This document shows, one piece after another, positions 4,084 through 55,947 of a stretch of DNA of 64,000 bases. The DNA is from a phage, in the sequence record PZ445489.1; one strand, given 5' to 3'. Within the stretch, counting starts at the first letter, position 1. Each line of letters starts with the position of its first letter. The notes beneath the pieces were generated by a model. It did not search any database and was not told the origin of the DNA. It saw only the letters and a list, made by a program, of their open reading frames with translations. The position numbers and the translations under genes are program-made.

Positions 4084-4365
4084 TTAGTTCTGTACTGTAA
4101 ATTCATTCTTATCACAGTGAGCATAATAATACCCATACATACGATAAATTTTCACAGCCTTAGTAGACCCCTTCGATTCTTCATAATCAATCCAGAGCCA
4201 CTTGTCTTTACCTACATAATGTACCCGAAACTTCTTAGCTTTCTTATCATTCCATGTTGCAACAACACGACGATAATCAAATCCGCCCAACCAATCTAGA
4301 GCCTTACGTTCTTCACTAGGCTCTCCAAGATGGGAGACATCTACTTTAGGAAGCAATTCGCTCAT
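4084..4365 (-). CDS. hypothetical protein (93 aa)
   Basis: ORF immediately downstream of nrdD; no radical-SAM CxxxCxxC motif. Confidence 0.45.
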   Translation of the reverse strand: MSELLPKVDVSHLGEPSEERKALDWLGGFDYRRVVATWNDKKAKKFRVHYVGKDKWLWIDYEESKGSTKAVKIYRMYGYYYAHCDKNEFTVQN

Positions 4366-4399
4366 AGCTTTCTCCTCTCAAATTTATAAATCTATTATA

Positions 4400-4450
4400 T
4401 ATAAATTTTTGGCTGAAAGCAAATAAAATAAAAGCCAGGTCGACTAGCAA
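4400..4450 (-). terminator. candidate hairpin after nrdD
   Basis: Imperfect hairpin agccgggttgc..ctggct followed by T-rich run on minus strand. Confidence 0.35.
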
Positions 4451-4464
4451 CCCGGCTGATTAGC

Positions 4465-6339
4465 TTACTTAGCTCGAATATCCTGATGCTTCACTCTACC
4501 CATCACCTCGTGCTGTTTGCCAGGGTTAAATGGACGAGCACCCGGATTTCCAAGATACCCACAAACTCGACGAGTTACTTCAAGAGTTTCGGGGTCATGA
4601 TTACCACAGATAGGACACTTAAACCCATCTTCGGATGCTATTGTTTCACCTAAGAATCCGCATTTACCGCAAGAATCCACTGGAGTATTAATACCGAAGT
4701 AATGAACTTTACTAGCAGCATAATTAATAACCCATTCCAGTGCATCTGGGAATCGTTTCATATCCGGTAGTTCTACATAGGAAATGCACCCACCAGAAGC
4801 AATAGGCGTAAAGTTAGATTCATAATCAAATTTCACGTTAGGAGCAACTTTACGCTCTACATCAAGGTGGTGCGAGTTAGTGTAGTATCCTTTAGACAGA
4901 ATATCTTCATGCTCTGGGAAATATTCACGGTCTAAACGGCAAAACCTATCACATAGGGACTCTGACGGTGTAGCATACAGGCTATAACCTAACTTAGTCT
5001 CTTCCTTCTTCTGATCGACTCTATCTCGCATGTACTGCAATACACGCTGAACAAACTTGATGCAGGTCTCTGACATTGTGTCTACATCTTTGCCAAACAT
5101 GAACTGTAGCATTTCATGGCAACCAATATACCCTAGAGATACAGAAGCACGGTTATAGAAATGATCGAATACATATTCATCAGGCTCCAAGCGTAACCCA
5201 AAGGCTCCTGACATATAGAGGATGGGTGCAGCTTTAGCTTGGATGTATTTTAAGCGATCAACTCTCCACTCCAATGCTTTTAACGCTGTATCCACACGTA
5301 GCTCAAGCAAATCAAAGAATAGATCAATATTTCCTTCAGCTTCGATAGCAATTCTAGGCAAGTTTACAGAAACAACACCTAAGTTATTACGGCCAGCAGT
5401 TTCACCATCTTCTGCAGCAGCTAGGAATGAACGGCAGCCCATAGAAACTTTATAGTCTCCAGTAACTTCTACAACCTTGTCATAGCTGATATAATCTGGA
5501 TACATACGTTCAGCAGTACATTTCATAGCTAACTTCTTGATGTCATAATTAACATCTCCTGGTTTCATATTTACGCCATCGCGAAGTACAAATACCAGTT
5601 TCGGGAAGATAGCTGTACGTTTATTGATACCTAAACCATCCATGCGTACTTTCAGTATTGCTTTCTGTACTAGACGTGCTTCCCAGGAAGTTCCTAGACC
5701 AAAACCAAAGGTAATAAATGGACTCTGACCATTAGAGTTGAACATGGTATTGATTTCATATTCTAAACCCTGACAAGCGTCATAGACTTCTTTTTCAGTC
5801 ATCTCCGTAGCCATTACTGATGCTTTGGCTTCATCCTTAGTCCAACGTTTTGCAAACGCATGATTTTTGTCATAGGATTTACGAACATAAGGGGCTAATA
5901 CTTCATCAAGGCGATCTACAGAAGTACCACCGTACTGATGGGAGCTAACCTGAGTGATAATCTGAGCAGTAATAGCCGCCGCAGTAGTGATAGAGTTTGG
6001 AGTGCTAATTTCAGCATTACCAACCTTCATACCATTCTTCAACATATCTTCCAAAGCTACCAGACAACAGTTAGTCATGCCTAATGCAGCATAATCAGCA
6101 TCGTGGAAATGAATATCCCCAATCATATGAGCATTTCGAATCTGAATAGGCATTTCTTCTAGAATTAGATACTTACTCAATTCACCTGCAAGCATATCCC
6201 TTTGTGTAGGGAAACGTTCTGAGGGTTTATTGGCATTATTAAACAGCAGCTCTTCATCTGCTGACCCTTCGATAATCTCTTTGCAGTTTCTAATTAACGC
6301 CTGCATTTCTTTATACTTTAGTTCTTCATTACGATTCAT
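4465..6339 (-). CDS. nrdD: anaerobic ribonucleoside-triphosphate reductase (class III)
   Basis: 624 aa; C-terminal glycyl-radical motif RVCGYLG and Zn-ribbon CGKCG..CPICG. Confidence 0.9.
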   Translation of the reverse strand: MNRNEELKYKEMQALIRNCKEIIEGSADEELLFNNANKPSERFPTQRDMLAGELSKYLILEEMPIQIRNAHMIGDIHFHDADYAALGMTNCCLVALEDMLKNGMKVGNAEISTPNSITTAAAITAQIITQVSSHQYGGTSVDRLDEVLAPYVRKSYDKNHAFAKRWTKDEAKASVMATEMTEKEVYDACQGLEYEINTMFNSNGQSPFITFGFGLGTSWEARLVQKAILKVRMDGLGINKRTAIFPKLVFVLRDGVNMKPGDVNYDIKKLAMKCTAERMYPDYISYDKVVEVTGDYKVSMGCRSFLAAAEDGETAGRNNLGVVSVNLPRIAIEAEGNIDLFFDLLELRVDTALKALEWRVDRLKYIQAKAAPILYMSGAFGLRLEPDEYVFDHFYNRASVSLGYIGCHEMLQFMFGKDVDTMSETCIKFVQRVLQYMRDRVDQKKEETKLGYSLYATPSESLCDRFCRLDREYFPEHEDILSKGYYTNSHHLDVERKVAPNVKFDYESNFTPIASGGCISYVELPDMKRFPDALEWVINYAASKVHYFGINTPVDSCGKCGFLGETIASEDGFKCPICGNHDPETLEVTRRVCGYLGNPGARPFNPGKQHEVMGRVKHQDIRAK

Positions 6340-50871: not shown

Positions 50872-51000
50872 AGAATCATTATCATTTAAAAAGCGAAATG
50901 AGAACTATTCAAAAAGTGAAATGATTCTCATTTAGGAAAGGAAATGATTATCGGTTAGAAAGTGAAATGCGAATGAGAATAATTCTCATTTAAGAATGGA
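50872..51000. promoter_or_regulatory. cluster of palindromic AATGAGAAT-N-ATTCTCATT-type operator-like boxes
   Basis: Palindromes at 50872-50896, 50928-50943, 50982-51000 plus GAAATGA half-site repeats. Confidence 0.55.
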
Positions 51001-51023
51001 AGTGAGAAACACTGTTATTTAAG

Positions 51024-51105
51024 TTATCCACAGACTTATTAACAGCACGATTTGACTTGACAGAATCCTAGCCATTTTGAGGCGTTATTAACAGACTTAT
51101 CCACA
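51024..51105 (+). promoter_or_regulatory. two DnaA-box-like TTATCCACA sites
   Basis: TTATCCACA at 51024-51032 and 51097-51105. Confidence 0.5.
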
Positions 51106-51129
51106 GCTTATCCTACTGTATAAATATAC
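51094..51129. repeat. 36-bp inverted repeat, left copy (partner 54637-54672)
   Basis: gacttatccacagcttatcctactgtataaatatac; 34 of 36 match reverse complement of right copy. Confidence 0.7.
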
Positions 51130-51327
51130 AGTATTCCTACGTAGTGAATAATTCTAATATACCGCTAAAACGTCCTAGATCGCATTCTAACGCGTTTAAT
51201 TTTGGTGGGGATACTAAAACAAGGGCAAAATTGGAGGAGGCTTAAAAATTAGTTAGCCCGCTAACGATCACACAAGTCGACACGTAACACCCTAATCATT
51301 AGCAGGCTAACCATCGCGGGCGCGCTC

Positions 51328-54367: not shown

Positions 54368-54636
54368 TTGTTCGGCCTCCCTCGTTAATCGGTGAGTGAA
54401 TGATATAGATATTTTCTTTCTAGGGGCAAATATTATTTTACCTTTTTATTTTCCTTGCCTAGCGCCTAGTTTTATGCTAACCGCGCAGCGGTGCAATAAA
54501 GAGCAAAACACGGCGAAGCCCCCAGGGCGACGGGTGAAGGCTTTACTTTAATATTACCCCACCGCATTTAGCTCGTTAGAAAGCGTTTTAGGCCGCTTAA
54601 AATTGATTGCAGTTGTTAACACTACCTTTTTACCTT

Positions 54637-54672
54637 GTATATTTATACAGTAGGATAACATGTGGATAAGTC
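54637..54672. repeat. 36-bp inverted repeat, right copy (partner 51094-51129)
   Basis: gtatatttatacagtaggataacatgtggataagtc. Confidence 0.7.
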
Positions 54673-54742
54673 TGTGGATAAGCCCTTATATCGCCGCCTA
54701 TTGTGTCAAATCATTTTGTGCTGTGGATAACGTTGTGGATAA
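54661..54742 (-). promoter_or_regulatory. cluster of four DnaA-box-like sites
   Basis: TGTGGATAA on + strand at 54661, 54673, 54722, 54734 (TTATCCACA on minus). Confidence 0.55.
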
Positions 54743-55025
54743 CTTAAATGATAGTGGTTCTCACTTAGGCCGATAGTTTCTTATAGTTATTATTTCTATT
54801 GGTTACGATTTCTTATAATTATTATTTCTCATTAATTTATATGTATATTATATATCATGAAATAGTTAGTTGGCTAATGAGATTTTCCGTGATTAATAGT
54901 CTGCTAATAATTTAAGCCGTTACAATCCACCAGCACGATTATCATCCTAGCAATTATAAGCCTGCTATTCTCCCAATACACACTAACAAACAAAAGTCAA
55001 TTAATTTATTTCATAAAATAAGTAG

Positions 55026-55058
55026 TTATCCACTGGAAAATAAAAGTCAAGTGGATAA
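55026..55058. promoter_or_regulatory. inverted pair of DnaA-box-like sites
   Basis: agttatccact and agtggataact, 11-bp arms 14 nt apart. Confidence 0.5.
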
Positions 55059-55459
55059 CTAGGAAAATTTCATTTTTGCTTTTTGGGGATAAGTTATCAA
55101 CAAGGCTAGAATGCGCCTAAAACGCCCTAGAACGCGATGAAAGTTTTAGCCATGCCATTGCATTGCCTACCCTCGTTTATCGCTGCCACGAGCTTTTTAA
55201 GTTTTGTCAATACCCCCAAAGCAAATATAGATGAAAAAATTACTTGCCAACCTGCTGGGTTTTATGGTATTCGCGCGCCCGTTTCTTTTAATTTTAGTGC
55301 GGCGCGCCCAGGTCGCCGCACGCCGTCCGGTTAATCGTGTCTTTACGTTTCTTTACAAAAATAAGGTTGCGCCATTTTTGGTATTTGCTATTATTTACCA
55401 CGTAGGGCGGCAATGACGAACTACACGGCGGGAAGTTTACCGCCGCGCTCTTTAAAAAT

Positions 55460-55483
55460 TGGGTACATCTTAAAGCCTATCGG
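55460..55483. repeat. 24-bp perfect inverted repeat, left arm
   Basis: tgggtacatcttaaagcctatcgg; exact reverse complement at 55729-55752. Confidence 0.8.
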
Positions 55484-55516
55484 CGGTAAACTTATTCATT
55501 ATAAGGAATCGACGAT

Positions 55517-55720
55517 ATGAAACAAACTTTATTGATCACTGGTAAACCTAGCAAGGCACTGGACAGCAAAACAAAAAATTTGTTGACAGTAGCGCAAAGA
55601 TCGGTAAAATATCGATTTAAGCAGTACAAGAAAGGCCGCCAGCAAGGTCTGGAAATGATCTGGCGTAATATTATGATTGACTTAAAAGAAAATCATAAAA
55701 AACTGCAAAAAATTGTTTGA
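55517..55720 (+). CDS. small basic protein (67 aa) bracketed by 24-bp inverted repeat
   Basis: ATG with weak purine-rich RBS (GGAATCGACGAT upstream); Lys/Arg-rich. Confidence 0.45.
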   Translation: MKQTLLITGKPSKALDSKTKNLLTVAQRSVKYRFKQYKKGRQQGLEMIWRNIMIDLKENHKKLQKIV

Positions 55721-55728
55721 CACCCTAG

Positions 55729-55752
55729 CCGATAGGCTTTAAGATGTACCCA
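55729..55752. repeat. 24-bp perfect inverted repeat, right arm
   Basis: ccgataggctttaagatgtaccca. Confidence 0.8.
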
Positions 55753-55947
55753 GTTCGATAAGAGCGATAACTTGATAAAATTTGACGGTCGGCACTTACC
55801 ATAATGTGCCCCGCCCCCTAACTGGGATATAGCGGCCTGCGTGGAGTTCTTTAAATTGATTATATTGGCGAGCGGATTGTTGCTTATTACCTGCTAGAAA
55901 GTAGCAGGTAATGCGGAACAATCCCCTAAATAACTGGAGTTTATACT

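What the first reader, a model, noticed from the sequence alone, without database searches (positions are those of the whole stretch)
55460..55752. Perfect 24-bp inverted repeat bracketing a 67-aa basic ORF
tgggtacatcttaaagcctatcgg (55460-55483) is the exact reverse complement of 55729-55752, enclosing ORF 55517-55720 and its RBS. In RNA this would form a 24-bp stem sequestering the whole cistron; in DNA it resembles a miniature inverted-repeat element or recombination target.
Basis: seen in the sequence. Interest (0 to 1): 0.5.

Follow-up and report, generated by a model that had tools for sequence, protein, structure and literature searches.

The report
Conserved RNA stem bracketing phage hdi
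The repeat is real: it is the already-catalogued but unexplained 'IRA/IRA′' inverted repeat of T5-like phages, it flanks the host-division-inhibitor gene hdi, its downstream arm is the core of a strong early promoter, and its evolution suggests it acts as a long-range RNA helix and not as a mobile DNA element.

Summary
A perfect inverted repeat lies at 55460-55484 / 55728-55752. As RNA it extends to a 28-bp helix plus a 7-bp outer helix.

The window is the pre-early terminal-repeat region of a T5-like phage. The enclosed 67-aa ORF is Hdi (T5.008), a published FtsZ inhibitor. By position, the repeat corresponds to T5's 'IRA/IRA′' in Repeat Region 1, which has no assigned function in the papers I could read.

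Findings here:
- The right arm covers positions about -24 to +1 of the promoter TTGACA-N17-TAAGAT (P_D/E20). Spacer bases inside the repeat are conserved; those outside it vary.
- All 55 distinct Tequintavirus and Epseptimavirus relatives keep the bracket. Single representatives of four other Demerecviridae lineages have one with different arm sequences but preserved complementarity.
- One-sided differences are mostly G·U on the + strand (81 cells against 3 A·C), with no background mutational bias.
- The enclosed genes vary, the orientation never flips, and the motif occurs nowhere else.

Best reading: a selected long-range helix in read-through pre-early mRNA. RNase III-type processing is an untested guess. 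MITE, invertible switch and recombination target are not supported.

The parts
55367..55394 (+). Candidate upstream promoter ('P_009'): -35 TTGCGC 55367-55372, 16-nt spacer, -10 TATTAT 55389-55394; predicted start about 55400-55402. It would give the only transcript that carries both arms and hdi.
   Evidence: Both hexamers are conserved across relatives while the spacer between them is hypervariable, which is the usual signature of a promoter. It scores 8/12, below the scan threshold. There is no experimental evidence.
55426..55445 (+). GC hairpin in the leader: CGGCGG / GAAGTTTA / CCGCCG.
   Evidence: Predicted in the minimum-free-energy fold. It is present as its exact reverse complement in L003 and L018. 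The scan does not call it a terminator.
55447..55459 (+). Conserved motif GCTCTTTAAAAAT directly 5' of the left arm.
   Evidence: The GCTCTTTAA core lies just 5' of the left arm in KEY, IME260, Sugarland, My1 and the Proteus phage. In most of these a second direct copy follows the right arm. Function unknown.
55446..55452 (+). Outer helix, 5' strand (CGCUCUU), pairing with 55760-55766.
   Evidence: It is 89% paired across 40 sequences and is clade-specific.
55457..55484 (+). Left (5') arm of the long-range helix; the perfect part is 55460-55484.
55433..55493 (+). Alternative 13-bp pairing 55433-55445 / 55481-55493, which places the left arm in a 35-nt loop.
   Evidence: I10. T5 has a 12-nt equivalent. 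The pairing is lost in L003/L018 and in L079-type phages. Its significance is unresolved.
55503..55508 (+). Shine-Dalgarno sequence AAGGAA of hdi.
   Evidence: Read from the sequence. RNAalifold places part of it in a weak 5-bp hairpin next to the helix.
55517..55720 (+). hdi (T5.008 orthologue), 67 aa, host division inhibitor acting on FtsZ.
   Evidence: 88% identical to T5.008. Syntenic with T5.008. Matches phrog_4718 at E = 2e-40. Function from PMC10714956 and bioRxiv 10.64898/2026.04.02.716235.
55583..55610 (+). Promoter P_H22 inside hdi: TTGACA-N16-TAAAAT.
   Evidence: 11/12 consensus match. Aligns with the T5 annotation of P-H22 at 4799-4873.
55717..55745 (+). Promoter assigned to P_D/E20: -35 TTGACA 55717-55722 (overlaps the hdi stop codon), 17-nt spacer, -10 TAAGAT 55740-55745; start about 55752-55753.
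   Evidence: 10/12 consensus match. The -35 and -10 are conserved in all relatives. A preprint states that P_D/E20 partly overlaps hdi.
55728..55755 (+). Right (3') arm of the helix. It covers promoter positions about -24 to +1/+4 of P_D/E20.
55760..55766 (+). Outer helix, 3' strand (AAGAGCG).

Best explanation
The two arms are the strands of a selected long-range RNA helix in the sense-strand pre-early transcript that starts upstream of hdi.

Proposed sequence of events (inferred):
1. Transcription starts at the candidate promoter at 55367-55394 and produces a structured leader, the left arm, the hdi message and then the right arm.
2. Once the right arm is made, it pairs with the left arm. 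The result is a helix of about 28 bp, plus 7 outer bp, that closes the small-gene cassette into a 243-nt loop.
3. The right arm coincides with positions -24 to +1 of the strong internal promoter P_D/E20. Transcripts initiated at P_D/E20, which serve T5.007, A2 and A1, therefore lack the arm. Transcripts from P_H22 carry only the right arm. Only the cassette-encoding read-through RNA can form the helix.
4. A perfect duplex longer than two helical turns is the standard substrate of host RNase III. The most likely consequence is cleavage within the helix, or end protection by it. Either would separate the fate of the cassette mRNA (stability, amount of toxic Hdi) from that of the essential downstream mRNA.

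Shown: the repeat, its conservation, its compensatory evolution, the strand asymmetry, and the overlap with the promoter.
Inferred: co-transcription of both arms.
Guessed: RNase III involvement and its direction of effect.
For: 1. The helix dominates the predicted + strand fold of 55400-55800: -131.8 kcal/mol against -83 for shuffles, z = -10. RNAalifold recovers it unaided from 14 diverse sequences.
2. All 55 distinct Tequintavirus and Epseptimavirus sequences carry it. This includes DT571/2, where hdi is replaced by another ORF, and phages with an extra 52-aa ORF inside.
3. On 40 distinct arm pairs the core helix is 98.6% paired. Seven pairs vary on one side only and stay paired as G·U. Four pairs changed on both sides. 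No shuffle out of 500 reached the observed pairing or covariation score. Phage L020 carries a matching 1-nt insertion in both arms.
4. Strand asymmetry in the core: 81 G·U cells against 3 A·C cells. By site this is 8 against 3. For sites seen in two or more distinct sequences it is 6 against 0 (p = 0.016). The + strand RNA is 96.7% paired and the - strand 90.4%. Transitions outside the arms show no matching bias: 89 against 99.
5. Spacer bases of P_D/E20 inside the repeat are conserved. The 5 spacer bases outside it, and the whole spacer of the upstream promoter, vary freely. Promoter function alone therefore does not explain the conservation.
6. Single representatives of other Demerecviridae lineages (Erwinia KEY, Sugarlandvirus, Pectobacterium My1, Proteus Novosibvirus) have a bracket in the same place with different arm sequences but preserved complementarity. 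Duplex energies are -30 to -64 kcal/mol, against -9 to -13 for shuffled arms. In these, the right arm again covers the spacer and -10 of a TTGACA/TTGCAA promoter, and the left arm has no -35.
7. The T5.009-like ORF across the left arm is frameshifted or lacks an ATG in many relatives. The region therefore behaves as a leader, not as coding sequence.
Against: - No transcript data were available. The upstream promoter is only a prediction (8/12 consensus match), and co-transcription of both arms is not shown.
- The asymmetry test is modest when counted by independent sites (8 against 3, p = 0.11). The related sequences are not independent.
- Among the distant lineages, KEY's single mismatch is C·A and not G·U.
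- DT571/2 tolerates two A·C mismatches.
- Nothing found in the searchable literature links T5 pre-early RNA to RNase III.
- hdi is dispensable for T5 in the laboratory (PMC10714956), so a regulatory element devoted to it need not be strongly selected. Yet the repeat is better conserved than the gene.
- The hairpin-plus-GCUCUUUAAAAAU element upstream could reduce read-through into the left arm.
Confidence: 0.55

Rival explanations
1. DNA-level operator pair. The two arms are inverted binding sites for one protein, for example a pre-early regulator such as A2, or A1 with RNA polymerase. That protein occupies the -10 and spacer of P_D/E20 and a second site 270 bp upstream, loops out P_H22, and contributes to the known A1-dependent shut-off of pre-early transcription.
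For: The right arm lies exactly over the core of P_D/E20. Pre-early shut-off needs A1, and A2 binds double-stranded DNA. Arm sequences differ between genera, as would be expected if sites co-evolved with a diverging protein.
Against: Protein sites do not need base-for-base identity over 25-28 contiguous positions, and non-contacted positions should drift independently in each arm. The excess of + strand G·U over A·C (81 against 3 cells) has no explanation at the level of duplex DNA. Each arm lacks the internal dyad symmetry usual for dimeric binders (sequence). The left arm overlaps no promoter.
Confidence: 0.15
2. Inverted duplicate of a promoter core. The left arm is, or was, a leftward promoter sharing the -10 and start region of P_D/E20. 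It would give antisense or divergent transcription toward the DnaA-box repeat region.
For: On the - strand the left arm carries the same TAAGAT hexamer. In Vibrio phage D30 a sequence with the -10-like hexamer TAGAAT occurs three times, and the inverted copy sits at the point where the two operons diverge.
Against: No - strand promoter was called at the left arm. The position where a -35 should lie reads ATAAGT (2/6), and no -35 is present next to the left arm in KEY, IME260, My1 or the Proteus phage, whereas every right arm has TTGACA or TTGCAA. A decaying duplicate would not keep complementarity through changes on both sides across genera. The G·U bias points to the + strand.
Confidence: 0.08
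3. Mobile or rearranging DNA: a miniature inverted-repeat element, an invertible promoter segment, or a site-specific recombination cassette whose arms are recombinase targets.
For: Arms of 24-39 bp flank about 245 bp. The enclosed genes differ between phages: hdi alone; a 52- to 55-aa ORF plus hdi; a different 56-aa ORF in DT571/2; My1_014 in My1. The flank outside the right arm occurs in three alternative versions, with breakpoints at the arm. This suggests that the conserved arms serve as junctions for homologous exchange.
Against: There is exactly one pair per terminal repeat, and no copy anywhere else in the viral, metagenome or genome collections. The five stray single hits are on unrelated contigs. 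The window shows no target-site duplication. No relative has an empty site. The orientation of the enclosed genes is the same in all 55 distinct sequences. No recombinase or transposase is annotated nearby.
Confidence: 0.05

Closest known systems
Inverted repeats IRA/IRA′ in 'Repeat Region 1' of the phage T5 left terminal repeat (named by Wang et al. 2005 as cited by Davison; Davison, bioRxiv 10.1101/866236)
   Same: Same locus and nearly the same sequence. T5 has the pair at 4669-4707 / 4951-4989 with one T·G difference, flanking T5.008. [quoted passage not shown]
   Different: The literature I could read lists it only as a conserved repeat and dismisses it as a candidate injection-stop signal. 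No function, RNA reading, promoter overlap or covariation is described.
Long-range RNase III processing stems that flank 16S and 23S rRNA in bacterial rrn operons (textbook knowledge)
   Same: Two distant complementary segments on one transcript pair to enclose a functional RNA in a loop. The helix exceeds two turns and is conserved by compensatory change.
   Different: Here the loop is a 0.2-0.6 kb protein-coding cassette. RNase III cleavage is untested. The 3' strand doubles as the core of an internal promoter.
RNase III sites of phage T7 early mRNA, and lambda sib retroregulation of int (textbook knowledge)
   Same: Host RNase III acts on double-stranded elements in phage early polycistronic RNA to set the stability of individual messages. 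In lambda sib, only read-through transcripts form the full site, much as only upstream-initiated RNA carries both arms here.
   Different: Those sites are local hairpins with internal loops, not arms 245-640 nt apart. No experimental link to T5 was found. A local 26-nt imperfect hairpin of the T7 type does exist nearby at 55871-55927.
Miniature inverted-repeat transposable elements (MITEs)
   Same: Short terminal inverted repeats flank a segment of a few hundred bp.
   Different: Single fixed locus, no dispersed copies, no target-site duplication, no empty sites.

Membership tests
T5 IRA/IRA′ (Repeat Region 1 of the T5-like terminal repeat) | Inverted repeat at the homologous position of the T5 left terminal repeat, within 4682-5310, between A2/T5.007 and the DnaA-box repeats | tested here: met
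   The T5 pair lies at 4669-4707 / 4951-4989. Synteny with T5.007, A2 and A1 is kept. The name assignment is inferred from coordinates.
Hdi (T5.008) protein family, for the enclosed ORF | Sequence homology and synteny with T5.008 | tested here: met
   88% identity to T5. phrog_4718 at E = 1.7e-40 over the full length. Same neighbours. FtsZ inhibition itself was not tested for this orthologue.
Sigma-70 promoter P_D/E20, for the right arm | -35 and -10 hexamers at 17-nt spacing, conserved in relatives, at the position reported for P_D/E20 | tested here: met
   TTGACA-N17-TAAGAT, 10/12. The hexamers are conserved in all relatives. A preprint states that P_D/E20 partly overlaps hdi. Caveat: GenBank NC_005859 annotates 'P-D/E 20' at 4338-4664, which lies just downstream of these hexamers.
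RNase III processing helix | Continuous double-stranded RNA of about 20-22 bp or more | tested here: met
   28 bp with one G·U in the window. Other lineages have 25-38 nt arms; the Proteus phage helix is weaker, about 17-18 bp.
RNase III processing helix | Both strands present on RNA made in the infected cell | tested here: inconclusive
   A conserved promoter-like element lies upstream and no terminator was called between it and the right arm. No transcript data were available.
RNase III processing helix | Staggered cleavage by RNase III, dependent on rnc | not testable with these tools
   Needs in vitro cleavage, or end mapping in rnc+ and rnc- hosts.
Structured cis-regulatory RNA, generic | Compensatory base changes and strand-specific G·U tolerance | tested here: met
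   Four pairs changed on both sides and seven changed on one side only, all to G·U. 0 of 500 shuffles reached the observed score. G·U against A·C is 81 to 3 cells. Arms are fully diverged but still complementary in other genera. There is no Rfam match.
MITE / transposon remnant | Multiple dispersed copies | tested here: not met
   There are two matches in the window, which are the two arms. The collections hold only this locus of T5-like phages, plus five unrelated single hits.
MITE / transposon remnant | Target-site duplication and occupied/empty site polymorphism | tested here: not met
   The flanks AAAAAT / GTTCGA and CCGCCG / ATAACT are not direct repeats. The bracket is present in every relative examined.
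Invertible DNA switch (hin/gin/fim type) | Both orientations of the enclosed segment are found, and a recombinase is encoded nearby | tested here: not met
   The orientation is the same in 55 distinct sequences. No recombinase is annotated in the T5 or Elw terminal repeats.
Intrinsic terminator | Stem followed directly by a U-tract | tested here: not met
   No terminator was called at either arm. The right arm is followed by GUUCGAUAAGAGCG.

The most novel reading that the evidence does not exclude
The bracket may be a family-wide 'cassette expression module' of Demerecviridae. In this reading, a leader segment is kept complementary to the core of the next strong promoter, so that only read-through RNA forms a double-stranded clamp around interchangeable host-takeover genes such as hdi. 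The clamp, through RNase III or another double-strand sensor, then sets the dose of these toxic accessory proteins independently of the essential A2 and A1 genes. A more radical variant is that the left-arm RNA acts on the promoter itself, because it is complementary to the non-template strand of P_D/E20 from -24 to +1.
Probability: 0.12. Interest if true: 0.75.

Novelty: new member of a known kind. Interest (0 to 1): 0.5.

Why it matters
T5 is a classic model phage, and its first-injected 8% of the genome controls host takeover. The repeat regions there have been catalogued but, in the papers I could read, not explained.

If the reading is right, it would matter for three reasons:
- It gives one of those repeats a testable role: a selected RNA helix that overlaps the core of P_D/E20, a strong promoter.
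- It suggests a way in which these phages might dose toxic accessory proteins such as the FtsZ inhibitor Hdi separately from the essential A2 and A1 genes.
- It gives phage engineers a defined boundary for swapping genes in and out. Workers have reported being unable to clone or delete this locus.

It would also add T5-like phages to the list of phages whose early mRNAs depend on double-stranded RNA processing. If the RNA is never made, or the helix has no effect, the feature remains a well-conserved curiosity.

Tried and rejected
- Chance: rejected. Shuffles expect 0 matches, and no other repeat in the 64 kb is both long and perfect.
- Dispersed element: a degenerate arm motif was scanned against IMG/VR, metagenomes and 185,579 genomes. 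It found only this locus, plus five unrelated single hits.
- Known RNA family: Rfam gave nothing relevant.
- Terminator: not called at either arm.
- Leftward promoter at the left arm: no -35 in any lineage examined.
- Mutational strand bias as the cause of the G·U excess: background transitions are balanced, 89 against 99.
- Coding constraint from the T5.009-like ORF as the cause of left-arm conservation: that ORF is frameshifted, truncated or lacks a start codon in many relatives.
- Promoter function as the sole cause of right-arm conservation: spacer bases just outside the repeat vary, and the upstream promoter's spacer is hypervariable.
- An independent replicate of the G·U test in Sugarlandvirus failed. 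The arms are invariant in the five genomes fetched, and IMG/VR held too few relatives.
- Literature: Davison 2015 could not be retrieved and Wang 2005 was not consulted, so the name IRA/IRA′ is assigned from coordinates. No paper on RNase III and T5 pre-early RNA, and no T5 transcription start-site map, was found.

Full report
**1. Observation**

The 24-mer TGGGTACATCTTAAAGCCTATCGG lies at 55460-55483. Its exact reverse complement lies at 55729-55752. There are no other matches in the window at up to three mismatches, and none is expected in shuffles.

The perfect repeat is actually 25 nt (55460-55484 / 55728-55752). It extends imperfectly to 39 nt (55446-55484 / 55728-55766). A scan of the whole 64-kb window for inverted repeats of 20 nt or more found six pairs. 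Of the other five, the best are 90% complementary over 21 nt, and one is a 131-nt, 79% pair at 51000-51130 / 54636-54766. The ORF 55517-55720 and its Shine-Dalgarno sequence lie between the arms.

**2. Where this is**

The region is 90-95% identical to the terminal repeat of many T5-like phages (Tequintavirus, Epseptimavirus). Annotated relatives, and T5 itself, give this + strand gene order: T5.009-like ORF, T5.008, T5.007, A2, T5.005, A1. This is the pre-early, first-step-transfer operon.

The 131-nt repeat pair carries DnaA boxes (TGTGGATAA) and matches in length the IRCspacerIRD / IRD'spacerIRC' pair that Davison describes in the T5 first-step-transfer region.

The enclosed 67-aa ORF is 88% identical to T5.008 and matches phrog_4718 over its full length. 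T5.008 is Hdi, a host division inhibitor. It destabilises FtsZ rings, is toxic when expressed alone, is dispensable in the laboratory, and confers a competitive advantage (PMC10714956; bioRxiv 10.64898/2026.04.02.716235).

T5 has the same inverted repeat at 4669-4707 / 4951-4989, with a single T·G difference. Davison's comparison of 25 T5-like phages lists a 'Repeat Region 1' at T5 4682-5310. [quoted passage not shown] By coordinates, the finding is IRA/IRA′. I could not retrieve Davison's 2015 paper to confirm the name, and I did not consult Wang et al. 2005.

**3. Anatomy**

Two strong sigma-70 promoters are called on the + strand:
- TTGACA-N16-TAAAAT at 55583-55610, inside hdi. This aligns with the T5 annotation of P-H22.
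- TTGACA-N17-TAAGAT at 55717-55745. Its -35 overlaps the hdi stop codon.

A 2026 preprint states that P_H22 lies fully within hdi and P_D/E20 partly overlaps it, and that these promoters made the locus unclonable. I therefore assign the second promoter to P_D/E20. One caveat: GenBank NC_005859 places 'P-D/E 20' at 4338-4664, which starts just downstream of these hexamers.

The right arm (55728-55752) covers twelve spacer bases, the -10 hexamer and the bases up to the predicted start, that is about -24 to +1. Transcripts initiated at P_D/E20 therefore lack the arm. Transcripts from P_H22 carry only the right arm. Only RNA started upstream of hdi can contain both.

Such an upstream start is plausible. 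TTGCGC (55367-55372) and TATTAT (55389-55394) are conserved in relatives, while the 16-17 nt between them are hypervariable. That pattern is typical of a promoter. The element scores only 8/12 and is not experimentally supported.

The T5.009-like ORF that would run across the left arm is frameshifted, truncated, extended, or lacks an ATG in many relatives. The region is better read as a leader. No terminator is called between this promoter and the right arm, and no - strand promoter is called at the left arm.

**4. Conservation and covariation**

I collected the locus from IMG/VR, GenBank phages, metagenomes and genome bins. This gave 55 distinct sequences. Every one has the bracket.
- The distance between the arms ranges from 217 to 404 nt.
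- The content varies: hdi alone; a 52-aa ORF plus hdi; frameshifted hdi; and, in DT571/2, a different 56-aa ORF.
- The orientation of the enclosed genes is the same in all.

On 40 distinct arm pairs:
- The core helix is 98.6% paired.
- Seven pairs vary on one side only, and all of these remain paired as G·U.
- Four pairs changed on both sides (U-A to A-U, C-G to U-A twice, U-A to C-G).
- None of 500 column shuffles reached the observed pairing or covariation score.
- Sliding the partner by 1-3 columns drops pairing to 28-45%.

Phage L020 has a matching one-base insertion in both arms. phiR201 has one-base insertions at the same position in both arms. RNAalifold, given 14 full-length sequences and no hint, returns the long-range helix as the main consensus element.

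**5. RNA or DNA?**

The non-Watson-Crick cells are strongly asymmetric:

| Measure, core helix | G·U on + strand | A·C (G·U on - strand) |
|---|---|---|
| Cells | 81 | 3 |
| Sites | 8 | 3 |
| Sites seen in two or more distinct sequences | 6 | 0 (p = 0.016) |

Over all 36 pairs (both helices), the + strand RNA would be 96.7% paired and the - strand RNA 90.4%. Transitions outside the arms show no corresponding bias: 89 of the type that would be tolerated against 99 of the other type. Mutational strand bias is therefore not the cause.

Duplex DNA, a cruciform or a protein operator gives no reason for this asymmetry. A + strand transcript does.

A second argument comes from the promoter spacer. 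The five bases between the -35 and the arm vary freely (CCCTA, ACCTA, CGCTA, CACCA and others), while the twelve bases inside the arm are conserved. Promoter function alone does not explain the conservation.

The evidence is good but not decisive. Counted by independent sites the test is modest (8 against 3, p = 0.11), and related sequences are not independent samples.

**6. Deeper relatives**

Single representatives of more distant Demerecviridae lineages, located through the T5.007 and A2 proteins, have an analogous bracket with different arm sequences:

| Phage | Arms | Enclosed genes |
|---|---|---|
| Erwinia phage KEY | 25 nt, one C·A | two small ORFs |
| Sugarlandvirus (IME260, Sugarland and three others) | 28 bp, one G·U, one bulge; identical in all five | a 55-aa ORF plus an hdi homologue |
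| Pectobacterium phage My1 | 38 nt, 84% complementary | My1_014; an hdi-like gene lies just outside |
| Proteus Novosibvirus phage | about 17-26 nt | two ORFs upstream of A2 |
| Vibrio phage D30 | 26 nt, 92% complementary; a third copy further downstream | one gene |

In every case except the Vibrio phage, the right arm covers the spacer and -10 of a TTGACA or TTGCAA promoter, and the left arm has no -35. Duplex energies are -30 to -64 kcal/mol, against -9 to -13 for shuffled arms.

Between T5 and Sugarland the -10 changed from TAAGAT to TATTAT, and the left arm changed with it. Conservation of complementarity together with loss of sequence identity is the strongest evidence that pairing itself is selected.

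With 217-640 nt between the arms, cruciform extrusion from duplex DNA is implausible (general knowledge of cruciform kinetics). That leaves RNA as the pairing medium.

**7. Mechanism**

Shown:
- a selected helix of 25 bp or more on the sense strand;
- the right arm coincides with the promoter core;
- the enclosed genes vary.

Inferred: the helix forms on read-through RNA from the upstream promoter and closes the cassette into a loop. The ribosome-binding site lies 19 nt inside that loop and is not itself sequestered. RNAalifold predicts only a weak 5-bp hairpin touching it.

Guessed: a perfect duplex longer than two turns is the canonical substrate of E. coli RNase III (textbook knowledge). 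The nearest precedents are the long-range stems flanking rRNAs, the RNase III sites of T7 early mRNA, and lambda sib, where only read-through RNA forms the site. I therefore propose RNase III-type processing or end protection that separates the fate of the toxic-cassette mRNA from the essential A2 and A1 message.

A further imperfect 26-nt hairpin just before T5.007 (55871-55927), conserved in T5 with a different loop, fits a processed operon.

My confidence that a functional + strand RNA helix exists is about 0.7. My confidence that RNase III is the effector is about 0.35-0.4. No paper in the searchable library addresses this.

**8. Rivals**

- An operator pair for a pre-early regulator remains possible (0.15). 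It does not explain base-for-base complementarity or the G·U asymmetry.
- A leftward duplicate promoter is unlikely (0.08), because no lineage examined has a -35 beside the left arm.
- A mobile, invertible or site-specific recombination element is unlikely (0.05). There is one fixed locus, no other copies in any collection, no target-site duplication, no empty sites and no inverted forms.

One point in favour of the last rival deserves mention. The conserved arms do coincide with mosaic junctions: the genes inside and the flank outside the right arm occur in alternative versions. The arms probably serve as points of homologous exchange. That would be a consequence of their conservation, not necessarily its cause.

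**9. Verdict**

The feature is real, non-random, and already catalogued as a repeat in T5. The ORF is a known gene. What appears to be new is the evidence for three things: the repeat is a selected RNA helix; its 3' strand is the core of a strong promoter; and the arrangement extends across Demerecviridae with fully diverged sequences.

It is best filed as a new member of a known kind, namely cis-acting long-range mRNA helices that are candidate RNase III sites. Interest is moderate. It gives a testable function to one of the unexplained repeat regions of a classic phage, but the mechanism is unproven and the enclosed gene is dispensable in the laboratory.

Noticed in passing
window 55447-55459; also L151 992 and 1397; L152 892 and 1380; L153 (- strand) 6260, 6739, 7043; L154 1295 and 1782; L156 1862, 2037, 2756, 2843 and inverted at 1448: A motif GCTCTTTAA[A/C]AAT sits directly 5' of the left arm in every Demerecviridae lineage examined. 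In most lineages a second direct copy follows the right arm by 4-12 nt. In Tequintavirus the second copy is inverted and forms the outer helix. It lies in the 5' leaders of pre-early transcripts, and its function is unknown.
   Followed up: partly
window 55426-55445; L003 and L018, homologous position: The GC hairpin CGGCGG-GAAGTTTA-CCGCCG in the leader occurs as its exact reverse complement (loop TAAACTTC) in two relatives. This is a clean hairpin inversion that keeps the stem.
   Followed up: no
window 55433-55445 / 55481-55493: A perfect 13-nt inverted repeat encloses the left arm in a 35-nt loop and overlaps its inner end by 4 nt. It is a possible competing structure. It is present in T5 and most relatives, but lost in L003/L018 and L079-type phages.
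   Followed up: partly
window 55871-55896 / 55902-55927: A 26-nt imperfect hairpin with an internal loop lies just upstream of the T5.007 ribosome-binding site. T5 keeps the stem with a different loop (T5 4507-4561). Erwinia phage KEY has a similar 26-nt hairpin after its T5.007 homologue. It resembles the RNase III sites of T7 early mRNA.
   Followed up: no
window 55413-55520: The T5.009-like ORF (35 aa), annotated in T5 and in several relatives, is not conserved as an ORF. Its length ranges from 16 to 56 aa, it carries frameshifts, and it has no ATG in several Epseptimavirus-type relatives (for example L034, L072, L087). It is probably a leader RNA and not a gene.
   Followed up: partly
L002 (T5 NC_005859) 4338-4664 versus about 4690-4720: The GenBank feature 'promoter P-D/E 20' covers 327 bp that do not include the TTGACA-N17-TAAGAT hexamers. 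A 2026 preprint places P_D/E20 partly over hdi. The database annotation appears to be displaced.
   Followed up: partly
window 51000-51130 / 54636-54766, and DnaA boxes at 54661-54742 and 55023-55108: The 131-nt inverted repeat pair (79%) matches in length Davison's IRD'spacerIRC' / IRCspacerIRD, proposed as part of the injection-stop signal. It carries DnaA boxes (TGTGGATAA), and further boxes lie at 55023-55108. No HNH endonuclease gene (hegG) separates the repeat regions in this phage, unlike in T5.
   Followed up: no
L058/L090 (DT571/2), L074/L075, L152, L153: The genes inside the bracket are interchangeable: a 52- to 55-aa ORF family (phrog_21018, phrog_25172) ahead of hdi; an unrelated 56-aa ORF that replaces hdi in DT571/2; and My1_014 (phrog_7884) in My1, with an hdi-like gene outside the bracket. 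All are of unknown function.
   Followed up: partly
L155 (Vibrio phage D30) 1727-1752, 2037-2062, 2502-2520: There are three copies of GCTTAGAATNGCTTACAGG. One is inverted and lies at the point where the two operons diverge. The left copy could therefore pair with either of two downstream copies. Homology to the T5 bracket is not established.
   Followed up: no
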